DNA from: Vicinamibacterales bacterium
GTDB lineage: Bacteria; Acidobacteriota; Vicinamibacteria; Vicinamibacterales; 2-12-FULL-66-21
Assembly: GCA_036258175.1 (NCBI GenBank)
Contig: DATAEE010000083.1
Coordinates: 27,752-91,751, forward strand
Reading direction: 5' to 3'
Length of the DNA: 64,000 bases
Positions 4,881-23,410 of the stretch are shown piece after piece. A program made the translations under genes and the position numbers. Each line of letters starts with the position of its first letter. Position 1 is the stretch's first letter. The notes below the pieces were generated by a model. It worked only from the letters and a program-made list of their open reading frames with translations. It searched no databases and was not told where the DNA came from.

Positions 4881-6060
4881 AAACGGTCACGATCTCGGTT
4901 TGAGCCGGTCCGGTGACGGTGGCCTCGCCATCGCCGTAATAGATATTGACTTCAGTCCGTACGCCGAAGCGATCGAAATACACTCCGGGTTCTATCGTGA
5001 AACCGGTGCCCGGAAGCAATCGACGGTCGTCGTGGGTTTCGTAATCGTCCATGTGGACGCCGTTGCCGTGGACGGTCCCGCCGAGGCTGTGTCCGGTCCG
5101 ATGGATGAACGCTTTTCCGTAGCCGGCGCGCTCGATGACCTCTCGCGCCGCCCGATCGACCTGCCATCCGCGCAGGTCCCGCCGCTCGCGAGCCGAGGCC
5201 TGGACGAGCTGGATCGCGGCGTCCCGTCCGTCGCGAATCGCGCCGAACGCGCTGCTGAACTCAGCCGGCACAGACGAGCCGGTGAACCCCACCCACGTGA
5301 TGTCCGCAAAGACCGCGCCATCCGTCGGAAGCTTTCCCCATAGATCGAGCAGCACTAGCTCATTGGCGCGAATGACACGGTGCGCCTCTGGCGACGGCAG
5401 GTAATGCGGGCTCCCCGCATTCTCCATCGCCGCGACGACGGGCGGCGAATCGGTTACCAGTTCCTCGTCGGAAAACCACTCCATCATCTTCTGCTGCAGC
5501 TCGTATTCGTCCCATGCGCCGCGCTCGCGCATGGTCGACCGGAGGGCTTCGAACGCGCGGTCCTTGATTCGATACAGCCGCTCGGATGCCGCGCGATGCG
5601 ACGCCAGTGCCTCGGCGCTCCATGACGCCTCGAAACGCTGCACGAGATCGCCCGATGACACGATGTCGACGCCGAGCGACCGCACCGCCTCGAACGTGCC
5701 CGCGTCCACCCGCGACACGTACGGGATAGCGCCCTGCGGTGAATACTCCATGGCGACGCGCTGGCAGCCGTCGAGCAGGCGCCGCAGGCCCGCTTCGAGC
5801 TCGCGGCGGCCAGCATACGCTTCCTTTGTCCCCGGAAGCCCGTCGAGATTATGACGCTCGATCGCGTGAACCAGTCCGCGCGGCGCCCCGGAAGCTGGGA
5901 TCAGGTAGTACCAGCGGCGCGTCGTCAACTTGCCCGACGAGCCCGCCAGGCCGGCTAACGTGGCCGCGATGGGGTTCGATCCGTGGAAATCGTAAAGCAG
6001 CCAACCGTCCAGTCTGTCGGCCGCGAGCGCGCGCTGGACGGCAGGGACGTCGAACAGCAT
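4879..6060 (-). CDS. M24-family metallopeptidase (Xaa-Pro aminopeptidase-like)
   Basis: ORF 4879..6444 trimmed to the ATG at 6060 (MLFDVPAVQRAL...). C-terminal pita-bread motifs are HRTGHSLG and FTIEPGVY. The upstream 128 codons are Arg/Ser-rich and overlap the divergent archease region. Confidence 0.85.
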   Translation of the reverse strand: MLFDVPAVQRALAADRLDGWLLYDFHGSNPIAATLAGLAGSSGKLTTRRWYYLIPASGAPRGLVHAIERHNLDGLPGTKEAYAGRRELEAGLRRLLDGCQRVAMEYSPQGAIPYVSRVDAGTFEAVRSLGVDIVSSGDLVQRFEASWSAEALASHRAASERLYRIKDRAFEALRSTMRERGAWDEYELQQKMMEWFSDEELVTDSPPVVAAMENAGSPHYLPSPEAHRVIRANELVLLDLWGKLPTDGAVFADITWVGFTGSSVPAEFSSAFGAIRDGRDAAIQLVQASARERRDLRGWQVDRAAREVIERAGYGKAFIHRTGHSLGGTVHGNGVHMDDYETHDDRRLLPGTGFTIEPGVYFDRFGVRTEVNIYYGDGEATVTGPAQTEIVTV

Positions 6061-17092: not shown

Positions 17093-19942
17093 ATGCGCCG
17101 CCGCCACCTCCGCTGGTCCATCGCGTTCGTCGCCCTGACGCTGACGTGGACGGCCCCGGCCGCCATGCAGACCGGCGCCAAACGTCCTATCACCCACGAC
17201 GTCTACGACTCCTGGCGGGCGATACAGGACTCGACACTGTCACGCGACGGCGTGTGGCTGGTTTACGTGCTCGCGCCACAGGACGGCGACGGGGAGCTGG
17301 TCATGCGGAACGTTCGCACGGGTGCCGAGCGCCGGCACGCCCGCGGCCGTGAACCCGTCGTCACCGCGGACGGCCGGTTCGTCATCTTCGCGGTGGCACC
17401 GCTCGATACGGAGCTGGACAAAGCAAAGAAGGAAAAGAAGAAGCCCGAAGAGCAGCCGAAGGCGGGCGTTGGGATGGTGAACCTGGAGAGCGGCGATGTG
17501 TTCACCGCCGACCGAGTGAAGAGCTTCAAGGTCCCCGAGGAATCGTCCCGGTACGTCGCGTGGCTCCACGAACCGCCGGCCGCACCGCGCAAGGACGACC
17601 AGAAAGACAGAGCCAGCTCCTCAGAGCAGGAAAAAGACAAAGCTGAGAAGAAAAACGAACCTGGCACCGACCTCGTCATTCGTGACCTCACGACGGGTAC
17701 GAACAACACGGTGAGCGGTGTCACCGATTACGCCTGGGCCAGAGACGGATCCCTCATCGCCTACACAGTGTCGACGGTGTCGGAGAAGGATGGCGTGTAC
17801 GTCCAGCCACCCGCCGGGTCGCAGCGTGCGCTGTTGACCGGCAAAGGACGCTACAAGGGATTGGCGATCGATCAGGCGGGCCGGCAGATCGCCTTCGTCA
17901 GCGATCGTGACGAGCACAACGGCCCTGCGCCGCGGTTCGATTTGTTTCTCGCGTCCAGTAGTGGCAGCGCGGAGAAAATTGTAGGTTCGACGACGGGCGG
18001 GATGCCGCCGGGCTTCTCCGTGAGCGAGCACGGACGTGTCGTGTTTTCGAAGGATGGCTCGCGATTGTTCTTCGGCACCGCCCCTGCGCCGAAACCCGAG
18101 CCGTCGAAAGACGCGCCCGAGCCCCTCAAAGTCGACTTGTGGCACTGGAAGGATCCGTTTCTCCAGACAGTGCAGAAGGTTCGTGCGGAATCAGACAAGA
18201 AGGAAAACTTTGTAGCCGTTGCGCTCCTCAGCGCGAAGGGCACCACGCCGAGGCTGACAAAGATGATTCAGCTCGGGTCGGAAGAAATCCCCGACGTCAC
18301 GGTCGGCGAGGGTTCGGAGACACTCTTCGGCAGATCGGACCTGCCATACCGCCAGCTCACCTCGTGGGACGGCGAGTACAACGACTATTACGTCTTCAAC
18401 CTGCCTGACGGTTCGAAGAAGCGCCTGGTCCAGAAGTCCGGATTTGACGCCCGGCTTTCGCCAGGCGGCGGATATGTCCTCTACTACACCGACGATAACG
18501 ATGGCTGGCACTCGGTCCGTTTGTCGGACGGCAAAGACGTCAACCTGACTGGACGTCTCGGCGTGCCATTCGTAGAGGAGGACTGGGACACGCCAGCGTC
18601 TCCAGCACCGTACGGTGTCGCAGGATGGACGGAAGGCGATCGCAGCGTACTGATTTACGACCGCTACGACGTGTGGGAGCTGAAACCGGACGGCTCCGGC
18701 GCACGCATGGTCACCGGCGGAGTCGGCCGCGGACAGAAGATCGTCTTCCGATATCAGCGTCAGGATGCACGCGGCGAGTCCGAGCCGTTCATCAAGACCA
18801 GCGAGCCGGTGCTGTTGACGGCCACCGACGATCGAACGAAGGACAGCGGTCTCTATCGCGCATCATGGGACGGACAATTGACCCGGCTGATGATGGTTCC
18901 CGCGGCCGTCGCGAACGTGCGCAAGGCGAAGGACGCGGACGTCTACGTCTTTACGCAGTCACGATTCGATGTCTTTCCTGATCTCTGGGTCAGTGACGGC
19001 TCCTTCAGCGCGCCGAAAAAGATCTCCGACGCCAATCCGCAGCAGGCGCAGTTCCGCTGGGGCAAGGCCGAGCTGATGAACTATGTCAACGCCGACGGCA
19101 AGCCGCTGCGCGCGACGCTGATCAAGCCGGACGACTTCGATCCGACGAAGAAGTACCCGCTGATGGTCTACATTTACGAGCAGCTGACACAGAACCTCCA
19201 CTCGTACGCTGCACCGGCGCCGAGCCACAGGATCAACCCGACGCGGTACGCCAGTAACGGCTACGTGATCCTGATGCCGGACATCGTGTACGACACGGGC
19301 TACCCAGGCGAGAGCGCAGAAAAGTGCGTAGTGCCGGCAGTGCACACCGTTGTCACCATGGGGTTCATCGATCCGGCGCGGATCGGCATTCAGGGCCACA
19401 GCTGGGGCGGGTATCAGATCACCCATCTCATCACCCGCACGAACATGTTTCGCGCGGTCGAAGCAGGCGCCTCCGTCTCGAACATGATCAGCGCCTACGG
19501 CGGAATCCGATGGGAGACCGGACGGTCGCGCGCCTTCCAGTACGAGAAAACGCAGAGCCGCATCGGCGCGCCGCCCTGGAGCCGGCCGCTGCAGTTCATC
19601 GAGAACTCACCAATCTTCTGGGTGGAGAAAGTGCAGACCCCCTACCTCACGATGCACAACGATGAAGACGGCGCGGTGCCCTGGTACCAGGGGATCGAGT
19701 TCTTCTCAGCGCTGCGCCGTCTCGGGAAGGAGGCCTATCTCTTCAACTACAACGGCGAGAAACACGGCCTCACGCAGCGCGAGACGCAGAAACACTTCAC
19801 CGTTCACATGGCCGAATTCTTCGACTACTACCTGCTCGGTCAGCCACGTCCCGAGTGGATGGACAAGGGCGTCCGCTATCTGGATCGGGGCACGCGCGAT
19901 CTCTCGGCGATCTATCGCACGGCGACGGAAGACAAGGATTAA
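17093..19942 (+). CDS. S9-family serine peptidase (prolyl oligopeptidase / acylaminoacyl-peptidase-like) with an N-terminal propeller
   Basis: ORF 16817.. trimmed to the ATG at 17093 (AGGAGA RBS, signal peptide). Catalytic Ser is in GIQGHSWGGYQ, with Asp in HNDEDGAVP and His in GEKHGL. Confidence 0.88.
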   Translation: MRRRHLRWSIAFVALTLTWTAPAAMQTGAKRPITHDVYDSWRAIQDSTLSRDGVWLVYVLAPQDGDGELVMRNVRTGAERRHARGREPVVTADGRFVIFAVAPLDTELDKAKKEKKKPEEQPKAGVGMVNLESGDVFTADRVKSFKVPEESSRYVAWLHEPPAAPRKDDQKDRASSSEQEKDKAEKKNEPGTDLVIRDLTTGTNNTVSGVTDYAWARDGSLIAYTVSTVSEKDGVYVQPPAGSQRALLTGKGRYKGLAIDQAGRQIAFVSDRDEHNGPAPRFDLFLASSSGSAEKIVGSTTGGMPPGFSVSEHGRVVFSKDGSRLFFGTAPAPKPEPSKDAPEPLKVDLWHWKDPFLQTVQKVRAESDKKENFVAVALLSAKGTTPRLTKMIQLGSEEIPDVTVGEGSETLFGRSDLPYRQLTSWDGEYNDYYVFNLPDGSKKRLVQKSGFDARLSPGGGYVLYYTDDNDGWHSVRLSDGKDVNLTGRLGVPFVEEDWDTPASPAPYGVAGWTEGDRSVLIYDRYDVWELKPDGSGARMVTGGVGRGQKIVFRYQRQDARGESEPFIKTSEPVLLTATDDRTKDSGLYRASWDGQLTRLMMVPAAVANVRKAKDADVYVFTQSRFDVFPDLWVSDGSFSAPKKISDANPQQAQFRWGKAELMNYVNADGKPLRATLIKPDDFDPTKKYPLMVYIYEQLTQNLHSYAAPAPSHRINPTRYASNGYVILMPDIVYDTGYPGESAEKCVVPAVHTVVTMGFIDPARIGIQGHSWGGYQITHLITRTNMFRAVEAGASVSNMISAYGGIRWETGRSRAFQYEKTQSRIGAPPWSRPLQFIENSPIFWVEKVQTPYLTMHNDEDGAVPWYQGIEFFSALRRLGKEAYLFNYNGEKHGLTQRETQKHFTVHMAEFFDYYLLGQPRPEWMDKGVRYLDRGTRDLSAIYRTATEDKD

Positions 19943-20895
19943 CGCTTAACGAGCGACTCGGAGGGTCTGGGCTCGTTGCGGGATGGGCCGGCGCCGCTGC
20001 GCTTCACGCGGTACAGCGCCTCGTCCGCGCGAGCCAGGAGGTCGTCGATCGTGCGCGGTTTGCGCACGGGCTGGCGCGCGGTTCCGACGCTCAGCGATAA
20101 CGTGTAGGCTGCCTCTTCGCGGGCGTTGCGCGCCTCGATCTGCCGCAGGAGCCTCGCGCGCAGCGCCTCCTCGAGGCTCTCATCCGCGTCCACGACGACG
20201 ACGGCAAACTCGTCTCCGCCGAGCCGCGCGATGATATCCACATCGCGGAACGTCGCCGTCAGCACCTGCGCGGTCGCGATCAGCGCTCGATCGCCTTCGG
20301 CGTGGCCAAACCGGTCATTGATTTGCTTCAGCCCGTCCAGGTCCGCCAGGACGACGACCAACCCCTGGCCGCGGCGGCGCGACAGCTTCAGCTGGCGCTC
20401 CGCGAGCGTAAAGAAACCGCGCCGGTTGTTCAGGCCCGTGAGCTCGTCGGTGAGCGACAGATTGACCAGCTCGCGCTGCAGCTGGTGTCGGTCGATTGCG
20501 TACCGAATCGATCGCGCCAGCATCCGCGGGTCGATCTCATCTTTGATGAGGTAATCCTGCGCCCCGGACTGCAGTGACTGCGCTGCGAGCCGCTCGTCCG
20601 CGGTGCTCGTCACTACGACAATCGGCACGTCCGGTGCTTCGGCTCGCACCGCGTGTACGGTCGCGATCCCCTGACTGTCGGGAAGGGAAAGGTCGAGGAG
20701 GACGAGGTCGACACCGCCCTGACCGAGCCGCGCCAGCCCGGCCGAGAGTCGCATCGCCGTGACAACTCTGTAATCGGCTTCGGCGACGCGCGCCGCGTCT
20801 GCCAGAACCAGTTCGGCCAGACGCAGATACCCTGCGTCGTCTTCGACGAGCAGAATCGTAAGCGGGGCGGAAGTGATGCTTCTGTCGAGAGGCAC
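19939..20895 (-). CDS. Response regulator (REC) fused to a GGDEF diguanylate cyclase
   Basis: REC domain: ILLVEDD...DLVLLDLSLPD. GGDEF domain: RLGGDEFAVVV with an intact RxxD I-site (RDVD) five residues upstream. Confidence 0.9.
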   Translation of the reverse strand: MPLDRSITSAPLTILLVEDDAGYLRLAELVLADAARVAEADYRVVTAMRLSAGLARLGQGGVDLVLLDLSLPDSQGIATVHAVRAEAPDVPIVVVTSTADERLAAQSLQSGAQDYLIKDEIDPRMLARSIRYAIDRHQLQRELVNLSLTDELTGLNNRRGFFTLAERQLKLSRRRGQGLVVVLADLDGLKQINDRFGHAEGDRALIATAQVLTATFRDVDIIARLGGDEFAVVVVDADESLEEALRARLLRQIEARNAREEAAYTLSLSVGTARQPVRKPRTIDDLLARADEALYRVKRSGAGPSRNEPRPSESLVKR

Positions 20896-20950: not shown

Positions 20951-22990
20951 TCACCAGCTGGGCCACGACTGCTCCCATCCGATTGTCAGCGCGGCGCGGC
21001 CGTCTCGCAGGCCGCGCGCGACGTCGACCGCAATCGCTCCGCCGTCAGCTGGGCCGCGAAGCCGGACGCCAAATCCGGCGTCAACGTGCAGCCGCTCATC
21101 GCCCGACAGCGATCGCCACGCACGCGCGCTGTCCATGAACATCACGCCGTCGAGGCGCATCAGCATGCGCGAGAGGAGTGTTCGACTGACTTCCACGCTC
21201 GCATGCGCCAGACGCTGACCGAAGACATCACCGGTGATGACGCCATCCTCGAGCAACGGATGGGCGCGGAGCCGCGGCGAGCGGGCGTGACCCGCACCGG
21301 CGCCAGGCCACAGATCGAACGGCGCGCGAGCGGTCGCAGCTTCGAAACCGGCGCGCGCGCGTAACAAGAAGGACTCCGTCCGCCCCGTACGTGATGCGAT
21401 GAGTACCCGGCCGGCGCCAAATCCTGCGGCCGCCGGCCAGAGCGAACCCTCGACACGCGCGGCAACTGCGTCGTCGAAGAGACGCTGTTCAACGGCGCCG
21501 TCGACGAACGCGGACGCCGTCCGGCCCGACCATCGATCCACGCCCGTTCCCGCTTCAACGCGCGTCGCCCCCGTCAGCCAGTCCGCAAATCGGATGCCCA
21601 CATGGCGCCGCTCGTCGACAACCATCGTCGAATCGCCGAGCGCGTACGGCTGGCGCGACCAGCCGCCTTCGATCGTCCAGAGTCCCGTTACGCCGAACAA
21701 CGACGGCGCCTCGGCGCTCAACGTGACCGCAGGACGGTTGTCCCAGAATCGCCATGCGGCGTTGAAGCGCTCGCCGCCAGGCGTCAGGCCGGTCACGCTC
21801 GCAGCGATCTCGCGTTCCACCGCTGCGCGAGCCGCCTGCCGCAGGACTGCGAGCCTCGACGGTCGAAGCGGCCGCTCGACGATGGCGACGTCGACGTCCG
21901 CGAGACCATTGGCCGCGGGTGTGTAGCTCACGCGCGACGCGCTCGCCGAAGGCAGCGCCGCGATCCGCCGGCGCGCACGAGCGAGCGACGCGGGCGTCAG
22001 AACGGTGCCGGCTTCGACATCAACGAGGTTCTCGACGACGCGGTGACTCGTATTCTCCAGGCCCGCAACTCGAACAAGATCCAGGCGAGGCTCGTCGAGC
22101 CGGTTCCAGGCCTCGAGCGCGCCCGACGCGTCCCCTTCGACGAACCGGCTCGACGCCAGAACACGCCAGGCGTGATCGGACTCCGGCGCCAGTTCCACGG
22201 CGCGCGCTGCGAACGTCCCGGCTTCGTCCCATTTCTGATCGAGGAACCGTACCCCGGCGAGCTCGAGGTTCGCGTCAGCCGATGCGGGACAGAGCGCGAC
22301 GGCCGCTTCGAGCGTCTGCGCAGCGGCAATGCGATCGCCGGCGCGGACAAGCCGGACGCCTTCCGTCACGAGCGATGCGCACGCAGAGTCGGACGGCGAC
22401 TGCGCACCAGGCTGGGCCTGCGCACCAGGCACCGACCCGGCACCAGGCACCCGTTCCGCACCAGGCACCCGGCACGAGGCACAAGGCACCGGAACGATCG
22501 CCCAGCGTCCCGTGCCGGACCACGCGCGATCGAATTCTGTCCGCGCGATCGTCCGTAGCGGTGCGCGCGCAGGATCGTGATAGATAATTCGCTCCGCGGT
22601 CGAGCCGACGATCACGACGTAGTGATAGCGGCCCGGCTGGTCTTCGATCATCGCCACTACGGGACGGCCGCGCGCAATCTGGCGCGCGAGCCCGTCGGTG
22701 TCAGAGATCTCGAGAGTAATCAGCTGCAGGCCGCGCGTTCGCAACTCGCCGGTGAGCGCCGACTGGCGGATTCCTCCCGCGTCGTCGTCCACGAGACCGG
22801 CGAAATCCTCGGCCCTGACGCCACGCGCGCCCCAGTACCGAAGAACCATCGCCGCGGCCGCACCGCCGCAGAGGCGCTCGGACTGCGAGACGAATGGAAC
22901 GTCGAGCAGGCCAGCCGCGGACACGAGCGAGGGCACGGCGAGCGCAAGTAGCATCGTGCCCATCCGCGTCCCCGCCCGTCGAGCGCTCAT
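20951..22990 (-). CDS. C39-like cysteine peptidase domain + TPR + POTRA + outer-membrane beta-barrel fusion protein
   Basis: ATG at 22990 with an AGGAG RBS, followed by a signal peptide. VPFVSQSERLCGGAAAAMVLRYWG carries the Cys and RYHYVVIVG...HDP carries His/Asp. TPR-like helices follow. The POTRA-like segment is LVRVAGLENTSHRVVENLVDVEAGTVL...VDVAIVERP. About 330 aa of alternating beta pattern ends in ...SWPSW (aromatic C-terminus). Confidence 0.7.
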   Translation of the reverse strand: MSARRAGTRMGTMLLALAVPSLVSAAGLLDVPFVSQSERLCGGAAAAMVLRYWGARGVRAEDFAGLVDDDAGGIRQSALTGELRTRGLQLITLEISDTDGLARQIARGRPVVAMIEDQPGRYHYVVIVGSTAERIIYHDPARAPLRTIARTEFDRAWSGTGRWAIVPVPCASCRVPGAERVPGAGSVPGAQAQPGAQSPSDSACASLVTEGVRLVRAGDRIAAAQTLEAAVALCPASADANLELAGVRFLDQKWDEAGTFAARAVELAPESDHAWRVLASSRFVEGDASGALEAWNRLDEPRLDLVRVAGLENTSHRVVENLVDVEAGTVLTPASLARARRRIAALPSASASRVSYTPAANGLADVDVAIVERPLRPSRLAVLRQAARAAVEREIAASVTGLTPGGERFNAAWRFWDNRPAVTLSAEAPSLFGVTGLWTIEGGWSRQPYALGDSTMVVDERRHVGIRFADWLTGATRVEAGTGVDRWSGRTASAFVDGAVEQRLFDDAVAARVEGSLWPAAAGFGAGRVLIASRTGRTESFLLRARAGFEAATARAPFDLWPGAGAGHARSPRLRAHPLLEDGVITGDVFGQRLAHASVEVSRTLLSRMLMRLDGVMFMDSARAWRSLSGDERLHVDAGFGVRLRGPADGGAIAVDVARGLRDGRAALTIGWEQSWPSW
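22402..22490. repeat. In-CDS irregular gcaccaggc(ac) repeats (linker PVPCASCRVPGAERVPGAGSVPGAQAQPGAQ)
   Basis: Read directly: ctgcgcaccaggc occurs twice, followed by several gcaccaggcacc variants. Confidence 0.7.
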
Positions 22991-23014
22991 TCCCAATCTC
23001 CTGTGAACCAGAGG

Positions 23015-23410
23015 TCAGTCAGCCAGCAGGATGATCACGATGACGATCAAGAGAATGATGATGATCGTCGTTGCGGTGATCACGACGGTGGTTGCACCAC
23101 CCGCAAGATCCTGTTCGATCTGCGACGCGTACTGGGCTGCCTGTGCGAGCTCGGCGCCGTCGAGCAGGCGCACCGCGGAGTCGGCCCGCGTCAGGTCGAC
23201 GCCCAGCCTCGCGGCGACGTCTTTCACTTCCTGCCGCGCGAGGACGCGGCGGACCGTCGCGCGATCCGCTTCCGCGCGCGCCGCGGCCGCGGCCACCGCC
23301 TGATCGAGCGTGGCGCGATCGGCGACGTGGGTCTGCTGCTGGGCGCCGGCAGATGGTGCAATCAGCCAGAGCGACAGGAACACCGCCAGCGTCTTTCGAA
23401 CGATCTGCAT
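23015..23410 (-). CDS. Small exported protein with a C-terminal hydrophobic anchor (PA2779-family-like, tentative)
   Basis: ORF trimmed to the ATG at 23410. Signal peptide MQIVRKTLAVFLSLWLIAPSAGAQ, a helical Ala/Arg-rich core (VRRVLARQEVKDVAARLGVDL), then LAGG followed by TTVVITATTIIIILLIVIVIILLAD. It ends 24 nt upstream of the peptidase-barrel gene. Confidence 0.6.
   Translation of the reverse strand: MQIVRKTLAVFLSLWLIAPSAGAQQQTHVADRATLDQAVAAAAARAEADRATVRRVLARQEVKDVAARLGVDLTRADSAVRLLDGAELAQAAQYASQIEQDLAGGATTVVITATTIIIILLIVIVIILLAD

What the first reader, a model, noticed from the sequence alone, without database searches (positions are those of the whole stretch)
20951..23410. Mini-protein with signal peptide and C-terminal anchor, paired with a C39-like cysteine peptidase fused to TPR, POTRA and an outer-membrane barrel
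Seen: a 131-aa ORF has a signal peptide, a helical Ala/Arg-rich core, and the sequence LAGG immediately before a 25-residue Ile/Leu/Val/Thr tail. It ends 24 nt upstream of a 679-aa ORF. That ORF has a C39-like N-terminus (VPFVSQ...LCGGAAAAMVLRYWG...HYVVIVG...HDP), then TPR-like helices, a POTRA-like segment, and a barrel-like C-terminal third ending in Trp. A REC-GGDEF cyclase with an intact I-site follows 55 nt downstream on the same strand (19939..20895). Established: C39 peptidases cleave after Gly-Gly motifs, and POTRA plus a 16-strand barrel defines the Omp85/TpsB transporters. From memory, RefSeq names a conserved but uncharacterised pair 'PA2779 family protein / PA2778 family cysteine peptidase' with similar features. 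I cannot verify that here. Inference: the peptidase may process the mini-protein at AGG, releasing either its soluble domain or its hydrophobic tail at the outer membrane, possibly under c-di-GMP control. I do not recall a C39-like domain fused to a POTRA-barrel being described.
Basis: partly seen in the sequence, partly recalled or inferred. Interest (0 to 1): 0.68.

Follow-up and report, generated by a model that had tools for sequence, protein, structure and literature searches.

The report
C39 peptidase–Omp85 fusion with mini-substrate
A soil acidobacterium encodes a Gly-Gly-specific cysteine peptidase built onto a BamA-like outer-membrane barrel, always beside a 130-residue membrane-tailed protein with an invariant Gly-Gly that is its likely substrate; this is an abundant, unstudied, barrel-fused variant of the uncharacterised PA2778/PA2779 gene pair.

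Summary
On the minus strand lie a 131-aa signal-peptide protein (23015..23410), a 679-aa protein (20951..22990) and a REC-GGDEF gene (19939..20895).

- **Small protein:** it passes the NCBIfam PA2779-family cut-off.
- **Large protein:** it has a C39 peptidase domain with an invariant Gln/Cys/His/Asp set. Then come a flexible linker, three TPRs, one POTRA and an Omp85 barrel. The AF2 model has pLDDT 89, and the best PDB matches are BamA and TamA. The Omp85 lid-lock residues are invariant.
- **Pairing:** the small gene is adjacent in 79 of 80 related loci. Its Gly-Gly, sited between the helical domain and a 21–26-residue hydrophobic tail, is invariant in 78 of 78.
- **Canonical PA2778 peptidases:** two proteobacterial examples are barrel-less lipoproteins with the same kind of partner.
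- **GGDEF:** the neighbour is clade-specific (3 of 80 loci).

Most likely, an outer-membrane-anchored periplasmic peptidase sheds the partner's helical domain from its membrane tail by cutting after Gly-Gly. Cleavage and topology are inferred, not shown.

I found no description of a C39–Omp85 fusion, although the family has about 470 clusters at 50% identity. Verdict: new variant of a known but uncharacterised kind. Interest 0.58.

The parts
23015..23410 (-). Small-protein gene (131 aa), PA2779-family / DUF6627. Layout: signal peptide, four-helix domain, invariant Gly-Gly, hydrophobic tail.
   Evidence: NF033919 45.9 bits against a cut-off of 40; DUF6627 24.6 bits against 27. RBS GGAGG lies 7 nt upstream. 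The AF2 model (pLDDT 68) has helices 30-57, 60-69, 73-81 and 85-103, coil 104-112 and helix 113-130.
23342..23410 (-). Sec-type signal peptide of the small protein (residues 1-23, MQIVRKTLAVFLSLWLIAPSAGA|QQ).
   Evidence: Read from the sequence: basic n-region, hydrophobic core, A-x-A before Gln. The same layout is seen in all 37 aligned homologues. No dedicated signal-peptide predictor was available.
23096..23101 (-). Invariant Gly104-Gly105, the proposed P2-P1 cleavage site (context ...QIEQDLAGG|ATTVV...).
   Evidence: GG is present in 78 of 78 neighbouring small proteins. Leu at -4 occurs in 65 of 78 and Ala at -3 in 61 of 78. GG is invariant in alignment A2. It lies in a low-confidence coil between helices.
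23018..23095 (-). C-terminal hydrophobic tail (residues 106-131, ATTVVITATTIIIILLIVIVIILLAD).
   Evidence: In relatives the tail is 21-26 aa, and I+L+V+T make up 78% of it. Lys/Arg occurs in the last 4 residues in only 19 of 78. The window tail has an uninterrupted hydrophobic run of 15 residues.
20951..22990 (-). Peptidase-barrel gene (679 aa from ATG 22990; the mechanical ORF runs from TTG 22996 and gives 681 aa). Residue numbers in this report use the 681-aa numbering.
   Evidence: Whole-protein AF2 model: pLDDT 89, pTM 0.86.
22916..22996 (-). Signal peptide of the peptidase (residues 1-27, ...LLALAVPSLVSA|AG). It has no lipobox.
   Evidence: Read from the sequence. The AF2 model has low confidence for residues 1-26. 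63 of 80 relatives have no Cys just upstream of the LDVPF motif.
22478..22906 (-). C39 cysteine-peptidase domain (residues 31-173). Catalytic set: Gln38, Cys43, His125, Asp141.
   Evidence: Pfam C39_2, C39 and C70 hits are above their cut-offs. The domain aligns with LahT150 (6mpz) and ComA across the Cys, His and Asp motifs. All four residues are conserved in 55 of 55 homologues.
22394..22477 (-). Flexible Ala/Pro/Ser/Gly-rich linker (residues 174-201).
   Evidence: pLDDT is below 50 for residues 182-201. Its length is 20-40 aa (median 25) and its sequence is not conserved among homologues.
22103..22384 (-). TPR domain (six helices, about three repeats, residues 205-298), with invariant Cys206 and Cys236.
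   Evidence: Weak single-sequence Pfam TPR hits. The family profile gives strong matches to TPR structures. Helices are seen in the model. The two Cys are invariant.
21875..22087 (-). Single POTRA domain (beta-alpha-alpha-beta-beta, residues 304-374).
   Evidence: DSSP elements E304-311, H318-325, H335-346, E351-361 and E365-374 in a region with pLDDT above 90. Foldseek alignments to BamA/TamA extend beyond the barrel.
20972..21811 (-). Omp85-type beta-barrel (residues 396-675). The L6 tip reads LRAHPLL (Arg577) and strand 13 reads F620-x-D622-x-A.
   Evidence: Foldseek best matches are BamA and TamA (E 4e-14 to 1e-10, probability 1.0). Pfam Omp85 is hit in 21 of 55 homologues. The profile matches the TamA/BamA C-terminal strands. 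Arg577, Phe620 and Asp622 are conserved in 55 of 55. Motif definitions come from PMC4490367.
19939..20895 (-). REC-GGDEF diguanylate cyclase gene, 55 nt downstream on the same strand. It is a clade-specific neighbour, not a core part of the module.
   Evidence: GGDEF 130 bits, Response_reg 66 bits. No terminator-like site lies between it and the peptidase gene. It is adjacent only in L001-L003 of 80 loci.

Best explanation
This is a two-gene envelope module: a protease and its dedicated substrate. Both proteins are exported by Sec.

The large protein inserts its C-terminal 16-strand Omp85 barrel into the outer membrane. Its POTRA, TPR and C39 domains stay in the periplasm, which is the topology shown experimentally for the enzyme-POTRA-Omp85 protein PlpD. 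The C39 domain hangs on a flexible linker of about 25 residues.

The small protein is a PA2779-family member. After its signal peptide is removed, its roughly 80-residue four-helix domain lies in the periplasm. A uniformly hydrophobic C-terminal tail holds it in a membrane, most simply the inner membrane by stop-transfer.

The TPR and C39 domains recognise the amphipathic helix that ends in L-A-G-G, and the peptidase cuts after Gly-Gly. This releases the conserved helical domain and leaves a tail peptide of about 24 residues in the membrane. It is a juxtamembrane shedding step.

What is shown: the domain identities, the invariant catalytic and lid-lock residues, the strict gene pairing and the invariant Gly-Gly.

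What is inferred: the cleavage itself, the periplasmic orientation, which membrane holds the tail, and what the released domain does.

In this clade a co-oriented REC-GGDEF gene may couple the module to c-di-GMP signalling, but this is not a general feature.
For: - Catalytically competent C39 domain: Pfam hits are above their cut-offs. Gln38, Cys43, His125 and Asp141 align with the catalytic motifs of LahT150 and ComA and are conserved in 55 of 55 homologues.
- Strict pairing: 79 of 80 loci carry the small gene directly next to the peptidase gene. It is upstream in 74 and downstream in 5. The one exception is a contig that ends just upstream of the peptidase gene. No other neighbour is conserved.
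- Gly-Gly is invariant in 78 of 78 partners, with Leu at -4 and Ala at -3 and hydrophobic positions at -8, -11, -14/-15 and -18. It sits in a flexible break between a helix and the tail.
- Canonical PA2779/PA2778 pairs in Azoarcus and Eleftheria have the same signal peptide, helical domain, PAGG and hydrophobic tail. They sit next to a C39+TPR lipoprotein. So the protease and Gly-Gly partner form the core, and membrane tethering of the protease is common to both versions.
- The helical domain is conserved in sequence (35% identity between the window protein and the Azoarcus protein), whereas the tail is conserved only in hydrophobicity. That is the pattern of a functional domain plus an anchor.
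- Omp85 identity and BamA/TamA-type motifs.
- Precedents: the PlpD enzyme domain is periplasmic (PMC11116518). FapD is an active periplasmic C39 peptidase (PMC5557850).
- Invariant Cys206 and Cys236 in the TPR are compatible with a disulfide in an oxidising compartment.
Against:
- The substrate's Gly-Gly lies only 2-5 residues from its hydrophobic tail. If the tail sits in the inner membrane, an outer-membrane-anchored protease must reach across the periplasm. This is possible through POTRA, TPR and the linker, but it is unproven.
- The tail lacks the usual positive cytoplasmic flank. Lys/Arg occurs in the last 4 residues in only 19 of 78, and many tails end in Asp or Asn. Its membrane and orientation are therefore uncertain.
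- The lid-lock residues of the barrel are strictly conserved. This hints that the barrel does more than anchor the protein.
- The spacing of hydrophobic residues before Gly-Gly (-4, -8, -11, ...) differs from the classical double-glycine leader (-4, -7, -12, -15; that consensus is quoted from general knowledge).
Confidence: 0.5

Rival explanations
1. Cleave-and-hand-over machine, an outer-membrane counterpart of peptidase-containing ABC transporters. After Sec export, the C39 domain cuts at Gly-Gly and the attached BamA-like barrel then acts on a product. Either it takes the beta-branched tail of about 24 residues into its lateral gate or into the outer membrane, or it passes the helical domain to the cell surface.
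For: - The Omp85 lid-lock residues (Arg577, Phe620, Asp622) and the L6 tip are invariant in 55 of 55, which suggests a working Omp85 rather than a passive anchor.
- In classical C39 systems the cargo lies C-terminal to Gly-Gly. Here that is the tail.
- The tails are 57% Ile/Val/Thr, which favours beta structure.
- The periplasmic C39 peptidase FapD is required for secretion through an outer-membrane barrel (PMC5557850).
- A POTRA domain is retained.
Against: - Canonical PA2778 peptidases are lipoproteins with no barrel but have the same kind of partner, so the core function does not need a translocon.
- The tail is uniformly hydrophobic (a run of 15) rather than alternating like an outer-membrane strand. 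It has no terminal aromatic residue like a beta-signal.
- Tail sequence varies widely across the family, while the helical domain is conserved.
- The barrel resembles BamA/TamA, which are closed to the outside, and not TpsB translocases.
Confidence: 0.2
2. The small protein is not a substrate. It is a membrane-anchored pseudo-substrate, inhibitor or adaptor that occupies or positions the C39 site. The true substrates are other Gly-Gly-containing envelope proteins.
For: - The strict pairing and the invariant Gly-Gly would fit an inhibitor that mimics a substrate just as well.
- No cleavage data exist.
- A P. aeruginosa transposon screen listed PA2778 as a candidate enzymatic toxin next to a possible protective gene, without follow-up (bioRxiv 10.1101/733030).
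Against: - The Gly-Gly sits in an exposed, flexible junction, which is typical of a scissile site.
- The catalytic residues are strictly conserved.
- Nothing in the 80 loci points to another conserved substrate gene.
Confidence: 0.15
3. Type Vd-like autotransporter. The barrel exports the N-terminal C39-TPR passenger to the cell surface, where it acts on external or neighbouring-cell targets. The small protein serves as a chaperone or immunity factor.
For: The passenger, single POTRA and 16-strand Omp85 barrel are in the same order as the type Vd architecture originally proposed for PlpD (PMC4104836).
Against: - The prototype PlpD has been shown to keep its enzyme domain in the periplasm (PMC11116518).
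- The canonical relatives are simple lipoproteins.
- The partner has a Sec signal peptide and a membrane tail, which places it inside the envelope.
Confidence: 0.1

Closest known systems
PA2779 family protein / PA2778 family cysteine peptidase pair (NCBIfam NF033919 / NF033920; Pfam DUF6627). Named but uncharacterised.
   Same: - Same gene order and tight spacing.
- The partner has the same layout: signal peptide, helical domain, (P/L)AGG and a hydrophobic C-terminal tail.
- The peptidase has C39 followed by TPR.
   Different: - The two canonical PA2778 proteins examined are lipoproteins of about 310-320 aa with a lipobox and no POTRA or barrel.
- The window protein has an ordinary signal peptide and about 380 extra residues that form the POTRA and Omp85 barrel.
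- It scores 59 bits against a cut-off of 150 on the PA2778 model.
PlpD / patatin-like Omp85 proteins ('type Vd')
   Same: An N-terminal enzyme domain, a single POTRA and a 16-strand Omp85 barrel in one chain. PlpD's enzyme domain is periplasmic, so the Omp85 fold serves as a scaffold (PMC11116518). That is the topology proposed here.
   Different: - The enzyme here is a C39 cysteine peptidase plus TPR, not a patatin lipase.
- It has a dedicated neighbouring protein partner.
- Dimerisation was not tested.
C39 peptidase domains of bacteriocin/peptide ABC exporters (PCAT1, ComA, LahT)
   Same: Papain-like fold with a Gln/Cys/His/Asp set. These enzymes cut after Gly-Gly at the end of an amphipathic helix (specificity as summarised in PMC5557850).
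   Different: - Those domains are cytoplasmic and fused to an inner-membrane ABC transporter. Their leader is a short N-terminal peptide.
- Here the domain is Sec-exported and fused to an outer-membrane barrel. The 'leader' side is a folded domain of about 80 residues and the C-terminal side is a membrane tail.
FapD, the periplasmic C39 peptidase of the Pseudomonas Fap amyloid system
   Same: A Sec-exported, catalytically active C39 peptidase working in the periplasm together with an outer-membrane barrel (PMC5557850).
   Different: - FapD is a separate soluble protein.
- FapF is a trimeric 12-strand barrel, not an Omp85.
- FapD's substrate is unknown.
- No amyloid-repeat genes lie next to the window genes.
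Omp85/TpsB superfamily as classified by Heinz and Lithgow 2014 (ten subfamilies)
   Same: POTRA plus a 16-strand barrel, with an L6 arginine and an F-x-D motif on strand 13. Other subfamilies also carry N-terminal non-POTRA domains: metallo, WD40 and patatin.
   Different: - No C39 or TPR-bearing subfamily is listed there.
- The motifs are variants: LRAH instead of (V/I)RG(Y/F), and FxDxA in 49 of 55 instead of FxDxG.

Membership tests
PA2779 family (NF033919) / DUF6627 | Score at or above the curated cut-off of the family model | tested here: met
   NF033919 scores 45.9 bits against a cut-off of 40. Pfam DUF6627 scores 24.6 bits, just under its cut-off of 27. A close homologue is named 'PA2779 family protein' by NCBI (P0133).
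PA2779 family (NF033919) / DUF6627 | Signal peptide, a protein of about 120-130 aa, Gly-Gly before a hydrophobic C-terminal tail, and a neighbouring C39 peptidase gene | tested here: met
   Seen in the sequence and in alignment A2. The layout matches the annotated Azoarcus and Eleftheria members. Adjacency holds in 79 of 80 loci.
PA2778 family cysteine peptidase (NF033920, equivalog) | Score at or above the curated cut-off | tested here: not met
   59 bits against a cut-off of 150. The match covers model positions 3-148 of 255, which is the C39 part.
PA2778 family cysteine peptidase (NF033920, equivalog) | C39 plus TPR architecture, about 250-320 aa, with a lipoprotein signal | tested here: not met
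   C39 and TPR are present. However, the protein is 679 aa with an added POTRA and barrel, and it has no lipobox. The two canonical examples have the lipoboxes LAAC and LTGC.
Peptidase family C39 (Pfam PF03412 / PF13529) | Profile match above the gathering score | tested here: met
   PF13529 scores 51.2 bits against a cut-off of 24, and PF03412 scores 34.1 against 22. All 55 homologues hit both.
Peptidase family C39 (Pfam PF03412 / PF13529) | Catalytic Cys, His and Asp with an oxyanion Gln, conserved | tested here: met
   Gln38, Cys43, His125 and Asp141 align with the LahT150/ComA motifs and are conserved in 55 of 55.
Peptidase family C39 (Pfam PF03412 / PF13529) | Cleavage after a Gly-Gly motif | not testable with these tools
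   This needs biochemistry. Only the invariant Gly-Gly in the partner is shown here.
Omp85 superfamily | C-terminal 16-strand barrel preceded by at least one POTRA domain | tested here: met
   The AF2 model (pLDDT 89) has one beta-alpha-alpha-beta-beta POTRA and 15 DSSP strands in residues 396-675. Foldseek best matches are BamA/TamA at probability 1.0.
Omp85 superfamily | Pfam Omp85 (PF01103) profile match | tested here: inconclusive
   The window protein has no hit at E<=1, but 21 of 55 full-length homologues hit at E<=0.01. The family profile matches the TamA/BamA C-terminal strands at E 0.002-0.009.
Omp85 superfamily | Lid-lock signature motifs: (V/I)RG(Y/F) at the L6 tip and (F/G)xDxG on strand 13 | tested here: inconclusive
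   The key Arg (R577) and the Phe/Asp (F620, D622) are invariant, but the motifs read LRAH and FxDx(A49/G6) (definitions). Assignment to L6 and strand 13 is by position in the model.
TpsB (two-partner secretion) transporters | Two POTRA domains, an N-terminal plug helix and GxDxG on strand 13 | tested here: not met
   It has one POTRA, no plug helix and an FxDxA motif. None of the 50 listed fold matches is described as a TpsB transporter.
Type Vd / patatin-like Omp85 (PlpD) | Patatin-like lipase domain N-terminal to one POTRA and an Omp85 barrel | tested here: not met
   The domain order is the same, but the N-terminal domain is C39 plus TPR, with no patatin hit.
Peptidase-containing ABC transporters (PCAT) | C39 domain fused to ABC transmembrane and ATPase domains | tested here: not met
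   There are no ABC domains. Only weak partial hits to the peptidase part of such models are seen.

The most novel reading that the evidence does not exclude
The C39-TPR-POTRA-Omp85 protein is a self-contained outer-membrane 'cleave-and-insert/export' device. It would be the diderm outer-membrane analogue of peptidase-containing ABC transporters. The C39 domain removes a large chaperone-like 'leader' (the helical domain) at Gly-Gly. The BamA-like barrel then uses its lateral gate to take up or insert the 24-residue Ile/Val/Thr-rich tail peptide, or it exports the released domain. That would be a new substrate class and a new activity for an Omp85 protein.
Probability: 0.15. Interest if true: 0.85.

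Novelty: new variant of a known kind. Interest (0 to 1): 0.58.

Why it matters
**A new Omp85 subfamily.** Omp85 proteins are central to outer-membrane biogenesis, and only a few non-POTRA N-terminal domains are known on them: patatin, metallo and WD40. A large subfamily with a Gly-Gly-specific cysteine peptidase and a genetically dedicated mini-partner would extend that list. The family has about 470 clusters at 50% identity, mainly in soil Acidobacteriota.

**A tractable test system.** Protease, recognition site and substrate are all identifiable from sequence. This makes it possible to ask whether the Omp85 scaffold is merely an anchor, as now argued for PlpD, or an active partner.

**A hypothesis for PA2778/PA2779.** The finding gives a concrete, testable idea for this pair, which includes genes of Pseudomonas aeruginosa. 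I found no functional study of it in the searchable literature. The idea is juxtamembrane Gly-Gly shedding of a small periplasmic domain by a membrane-tethered C39 peptidase.

Tried and rejected
1. **Model of the pair.**
   - Translating the two genes as one reference failed because of the stop codon.
   - Aligning a linked chimera with separate homologues misplaced the small proteins (A3).
   - No docking evidence exists.
2. **Fold search with the small-protein model.** No match had E below 1, so the helical domain has no recognisable solved relative.
3. **Literature.** PA2778, PA2779, DUF6627 and the NCBIfam accessions occur only in passing mentions. Searches combining C39 with Omp85, POTRA or type Vd found no description of the fusion. 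The library is limited to open-access papers, so this does not prove that none exists.
4. **Apparent natural fusion in L012.** The small protein and the peptidase appear joined there, but this is a frameshift in a long-read MAG, not a fusion.
5. **A third conserved gene.** None was found. The next most common neighbours occur in 18 or fewer of 80 loci: an FtsX-type permease, and a T2SSE-type ATPase in 16.
6. **c-di-GMP control as a general feature.** Rejected, because the GGDEF gene is adjacent in only 3 of 80 loci.
7. **Home-made signal-peptide check.** My regular expression was too crude (36 of 78 matched) and I do not rely on it.
8. **Fused versus unfused counts.** The protein-database searches listed only the closest relatives, which are all fused. 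I therefore could not count unfused against fused peptidases directly.

Full report
**1. What is in the sequence**

Three co-oriented genes lie on the minus strand.
- A small ORF runs from 23410 to 23015 (131 aa). GGAGG lies 7 nt upstream of its ATG.
- A large ORF follows. Its mechanical start is TTG 22996 (681 aa). Residue numbers below use the 681-aa numbering; subtract 2 for the ATG start.
- A REC-GGDEF gene (20895 to 19939) starts 55 nt after the peptidase stop. No terminator-like site lies between them. It carries RDVD five residues before GGDEF, which is an intact I-site.
- The flanking genes are unrelated enzymes: an S58 peptidase and an S9 peptidase on one side, and an Amidohydro_3 enzyme and tryptophan dioxygenase on the other.
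- The closest relatives come from Vicinamibacteria-type Acidobacteriota MAGs.

**2. The small protein**

- It passes the NCBIfam PA2779-family cut-off (45.9 bits against 40). It falls just below Pfam DUF6627 (24.6 against 27).
- Alignment of 37 homologues shows a basic and hydrophobic N-terminus ending in A-x-A before Gln, a conserved helical region, and an invariant Gly-Gly. A Thr/Ile/Leu/Val tail follows.
- The AF2 model is of moderate confidence (pLDDT 68). It has four helices (30-57, 60-69, 73-81, 85-103), a low-confidence coil across G104-G105 to residue 112, and a terminal helix 113-130.
- No solved structure resembles it.
- I examined 78 small proteins encoded next to related peptidases:
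  - Gly-Gly is present in 78 of 78.
  - Leu at -4 occurs in 65 and Ala at -3 in 61.
  - Positions -8, -11, -14/-15 and -18 are hydrophobic or Ala.
  - The tail after Gly-Gly is 21-26 residues, and 78% of it is I, L, V or T.
  - Only 19 of 78 have Lys or Arg near the C-terminus.
- The window's tail contains an uninterrupted run of 15 hydrophobic residues. This is what a transmembrane helix looks like, not an alternating outer-membrane strand.

**3. The large protein**

- Pfam gives Peptidase_C39_2, Peptidase_C39 and Peptidase_C70 above their cut-offs, plus weak TPR hits.
- Alignment with the double-glycine peptidases LahT150 (6mpz) and ComA places Cys43, His125 and Asp141 on their catalytic motifs, with Gln38 upstream. 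All four are conserved in 55 of 55 homologues.
- The AF2 model built on 55 homologues is confident (pLDDT 89, pTM 0.86). It shows:
  - a signal peptide (residues 1-27);
  - the C39 domain (31-173);
  - a disordered linker rich in Ala, Pro, Ser and Gly, which is 20-40 residues long in relatives;
  - six TPR helices (205-298);
  - one beta-alpha-alpha-beta-beta POTRA (304-374);
  - a barrel (396-675).
- Foldseek against the PDB returns BamA and TamA as the best matches (E down to 4e-14, probability 1.0). None of the 50 listed matches is described as a TpsB transporter.
- The window protein itself has no Pfam Omp85 hit, but 21 of 55 homologues do. The family profile also reaches the last strands of TamA and BamA.
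- The two Omp85 'lid-lock' signatures are defined in PMC4490367. Both are present in variant form:
  - The loop tip reads L-R-A-H, with Arg577, Ala578 and His579 invariant.
  - The following strand reads F620-x-D622-x-A/G, with Phe and Asp invariant.
- The F-type motif and the fold matches place the barrel with BamA, TamA and PlpD rather than with TpsB.
- Cys206 and Cys236 in the TPR are invariant. They may form a disulfide; this is an inference.

**4. Conservation of the pair**

- A scan of one genome per species found 453 relatives, and the best 80 loci were fetched. All 80 encode the full C39-to-barrel architecture.
- The small gene is adjacent in 79 of 80 loci:
  - It is upstream on the same strand in 74. 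This includes L012, where a frameshift merges the two reading frames.
  - It is immediately downstream in 5.
  - The single exception is a contig that begins 134 nt before the peptidase gene.
- No third gene is conserved. The next most frequent neighbours occur in 18 or fewer loci.
- The GGDEF gene is adjacent only in the three closest relatives.
- A library of 50%-identity cluster representatives gives 470 matches at E<=1e-30. Most of the best 150 are about 630-750 aa and match end to end. The fused architecture is therefore a large family and not an oddity.

**5. Relation to PA2778/PA2779**

- Two annotated canonical pairs were retrieved from plasmid records of Azoarcus sp. KH32C and Eleftheria terrae.
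- Their PA2779 proteins have a signal peptide, a helical domain (35% identity to the window protein) and P-A-G-G. A hydrophobic tail follows.
- Their PA2778 proteins are C39 plus TPR only. Read from the full ORF, each starts with a lipoprotein signal: LAAC in Azoarcus and LTGC in Eleftheria.
- The window peptidase matches the PA2778 model only over the C39 part and well below its cut-off (59 bits against 150).
- The core of the system is therefore a membrane-tethered C39-TPR peptidase plus a partner bearing Gly-Gly and a tail. The window lineage uses a POTRA-Omp85 barrel where the proteobacterial versions use a lipid anchor.

**6. Mechanism**

The best-supported reading is that the peptidase cuts its neighbour after Gly-Gly and frees the conserved helical domain from its hydrophobic anchor.
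- C39 peptidases cut after Gly-Gly at the end of an amphipathic helix. This is established knowledge, summarised in PMC5557850.
- The partner's Gly-Gly is invariant and exposed, and the pairing is strict.
- I place the catalytic domains in the periplasm for three reasons:
  - The partner is Sec-exported.
  - The canonical enzymes are lipoproteins.
  - The one studied enzyme-POTRA-Omp85 protein, PlpD, keeps its enzyme domain in the periplasm (PMC11116518).
- FapD shows that a C39 peptidase can be active in the periplasm.
- Cleavage, orientation and the membrane that holds the tail are all inferred.

Two points remain unexplained.
- The first is how an outer-membrane-anchored enzyme reaches a site only a few residues from what is probably an inner-membrane anchor. 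The flexible linker, TPR and POTRA may give enough reach.
- The second is why the barrel's functional signature is so strictly kept if it is only an anchor. This keeps open a more novel reading, in which the barrel handles one of the cleavage products.

**7. Rivals**

- A cleave-and-hand-over machine.
- A pseudo-substrate or inhibitor role for the small protein.
- A surface-displayed type Vd-like passenger.

The evidence and refutation tests for each are given in their own sections.

**8. Novelty**

- The PA2778/PA2779 pair is named in NCBIfam, but I found no functional study of it.
- The 2014 classification of the Omp85/TpsB superfamily lists ten subfamilies, none with a C39 or TPR domain. 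A 2024 paper lists only metalloprotease, WD40-like and patatin-like N-terminal domains.
- My literature searches found no C39-Omp85 fusion. They cover open-access text only.
- Public annotation calls these proteins simply 'C39 family peptidase' or 'predicted double-glycine peptidase'.
- I rate it a new variant of a known but uncharacterised kind.

**9. Limits**

- No complex model could be made.
- No signal-peptide or barrel-topology predictor was available.
- The model coordinates could not be inspected, so the strand count (15 by DSSP) and the orientation of the active site are not verified.
- The fraction of barrel-fused against lipoprotein versions across the whole family was not measured.

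Noticed in passing
L014:3835-5139 (and the equivalent position in 16 of 80 loci): A T2SSE/PilB-type secretion ATPase gene lies directly upstream of the small gene in a minority of loci (Pfam T2SSE, 159 bits). This may be a link to a pilus or secretion system in that subclade.
   Followed up: partly
L081:1799-3622 and L081:9150-9815 (Azoarcus plasmid pAZKH): Next to the canonical PA2779/PA2778 pair lies a divergently oriented EAL-domain (c-di-GMP phosphodiesterase) gene. A rhomboid protease gene lies about 4 kb away. This is a second, anecdotal c-di-GMP neighbour for the family.
   Followed up: no
L081:4875-5804: The RefSeq CDS for the Azoarcus PA2778 peptidase (248 aa, starting at 5058) looks truncated at its N-terminus. 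The ORF from GTG 4875 (309 aa) adds a lipoprotein signal (LAAC) and the catalytic Cys region, and it starts 2 nt after the PA2779 stop.
   Followed up: yes
window 22289-22381 (residues Cys206 and Cys236 of the peptidase): Two cysteines in the first TPR helices are invariant in 55 homologues. They may form a structural disulfide, which would fit a periplasmic location.
   Followed up: no
window 19939-19942: The S9 peptidase gene (plus strand, ending at 19942) and the REC-GGDEF gene (minus strand, ending at 19939) converge, and their 3' ends overlap by 4 nt.
   Followed up: no
L009 and L010: One MAG (DATIBD01, Vicinamibacteria SMAG_U16281) carries two separate copies of the pair on different contigs, so paralogous modules exist within a genome.
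   Followed up: no
L012:5341-7974: The small gene and the peptidase gene appear fused into one reading frame. The tail region reads out of frame, so this is a frameshift, probably an indel in a long-read assembly.
   Followed up: yes
P0122-P0127, P0134 (homologues of the small protein): JGI names several close homologues of the small protein 'branched-subunit amino acid ABC-type transport system permease component'. This is probably a mis-annotation driven by the Ile/Leu/Val-rich tail.
   Followed up: no
L004, L008, L023, L024 (small proteins): A second tail type occurs in some relatives: AGGQT-x-RLN-(I/L)-LW-(V/I)-I-(L/I)-GLL.... It replaces the usual (S/T)TTT-IIII tail. I did not test whether tail type follows features of the peptidase or barrel.
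   Followed up: no
L017, L018, L047, L052, L072 record titles: Some MAG records that carry this acidobacterial-type module are titled Bifidobacteriaceae, Fibrobacteraceae or Solibacteraceae. These are probably unreliable taxonomic labels on the assemblies.
   Followed up: no
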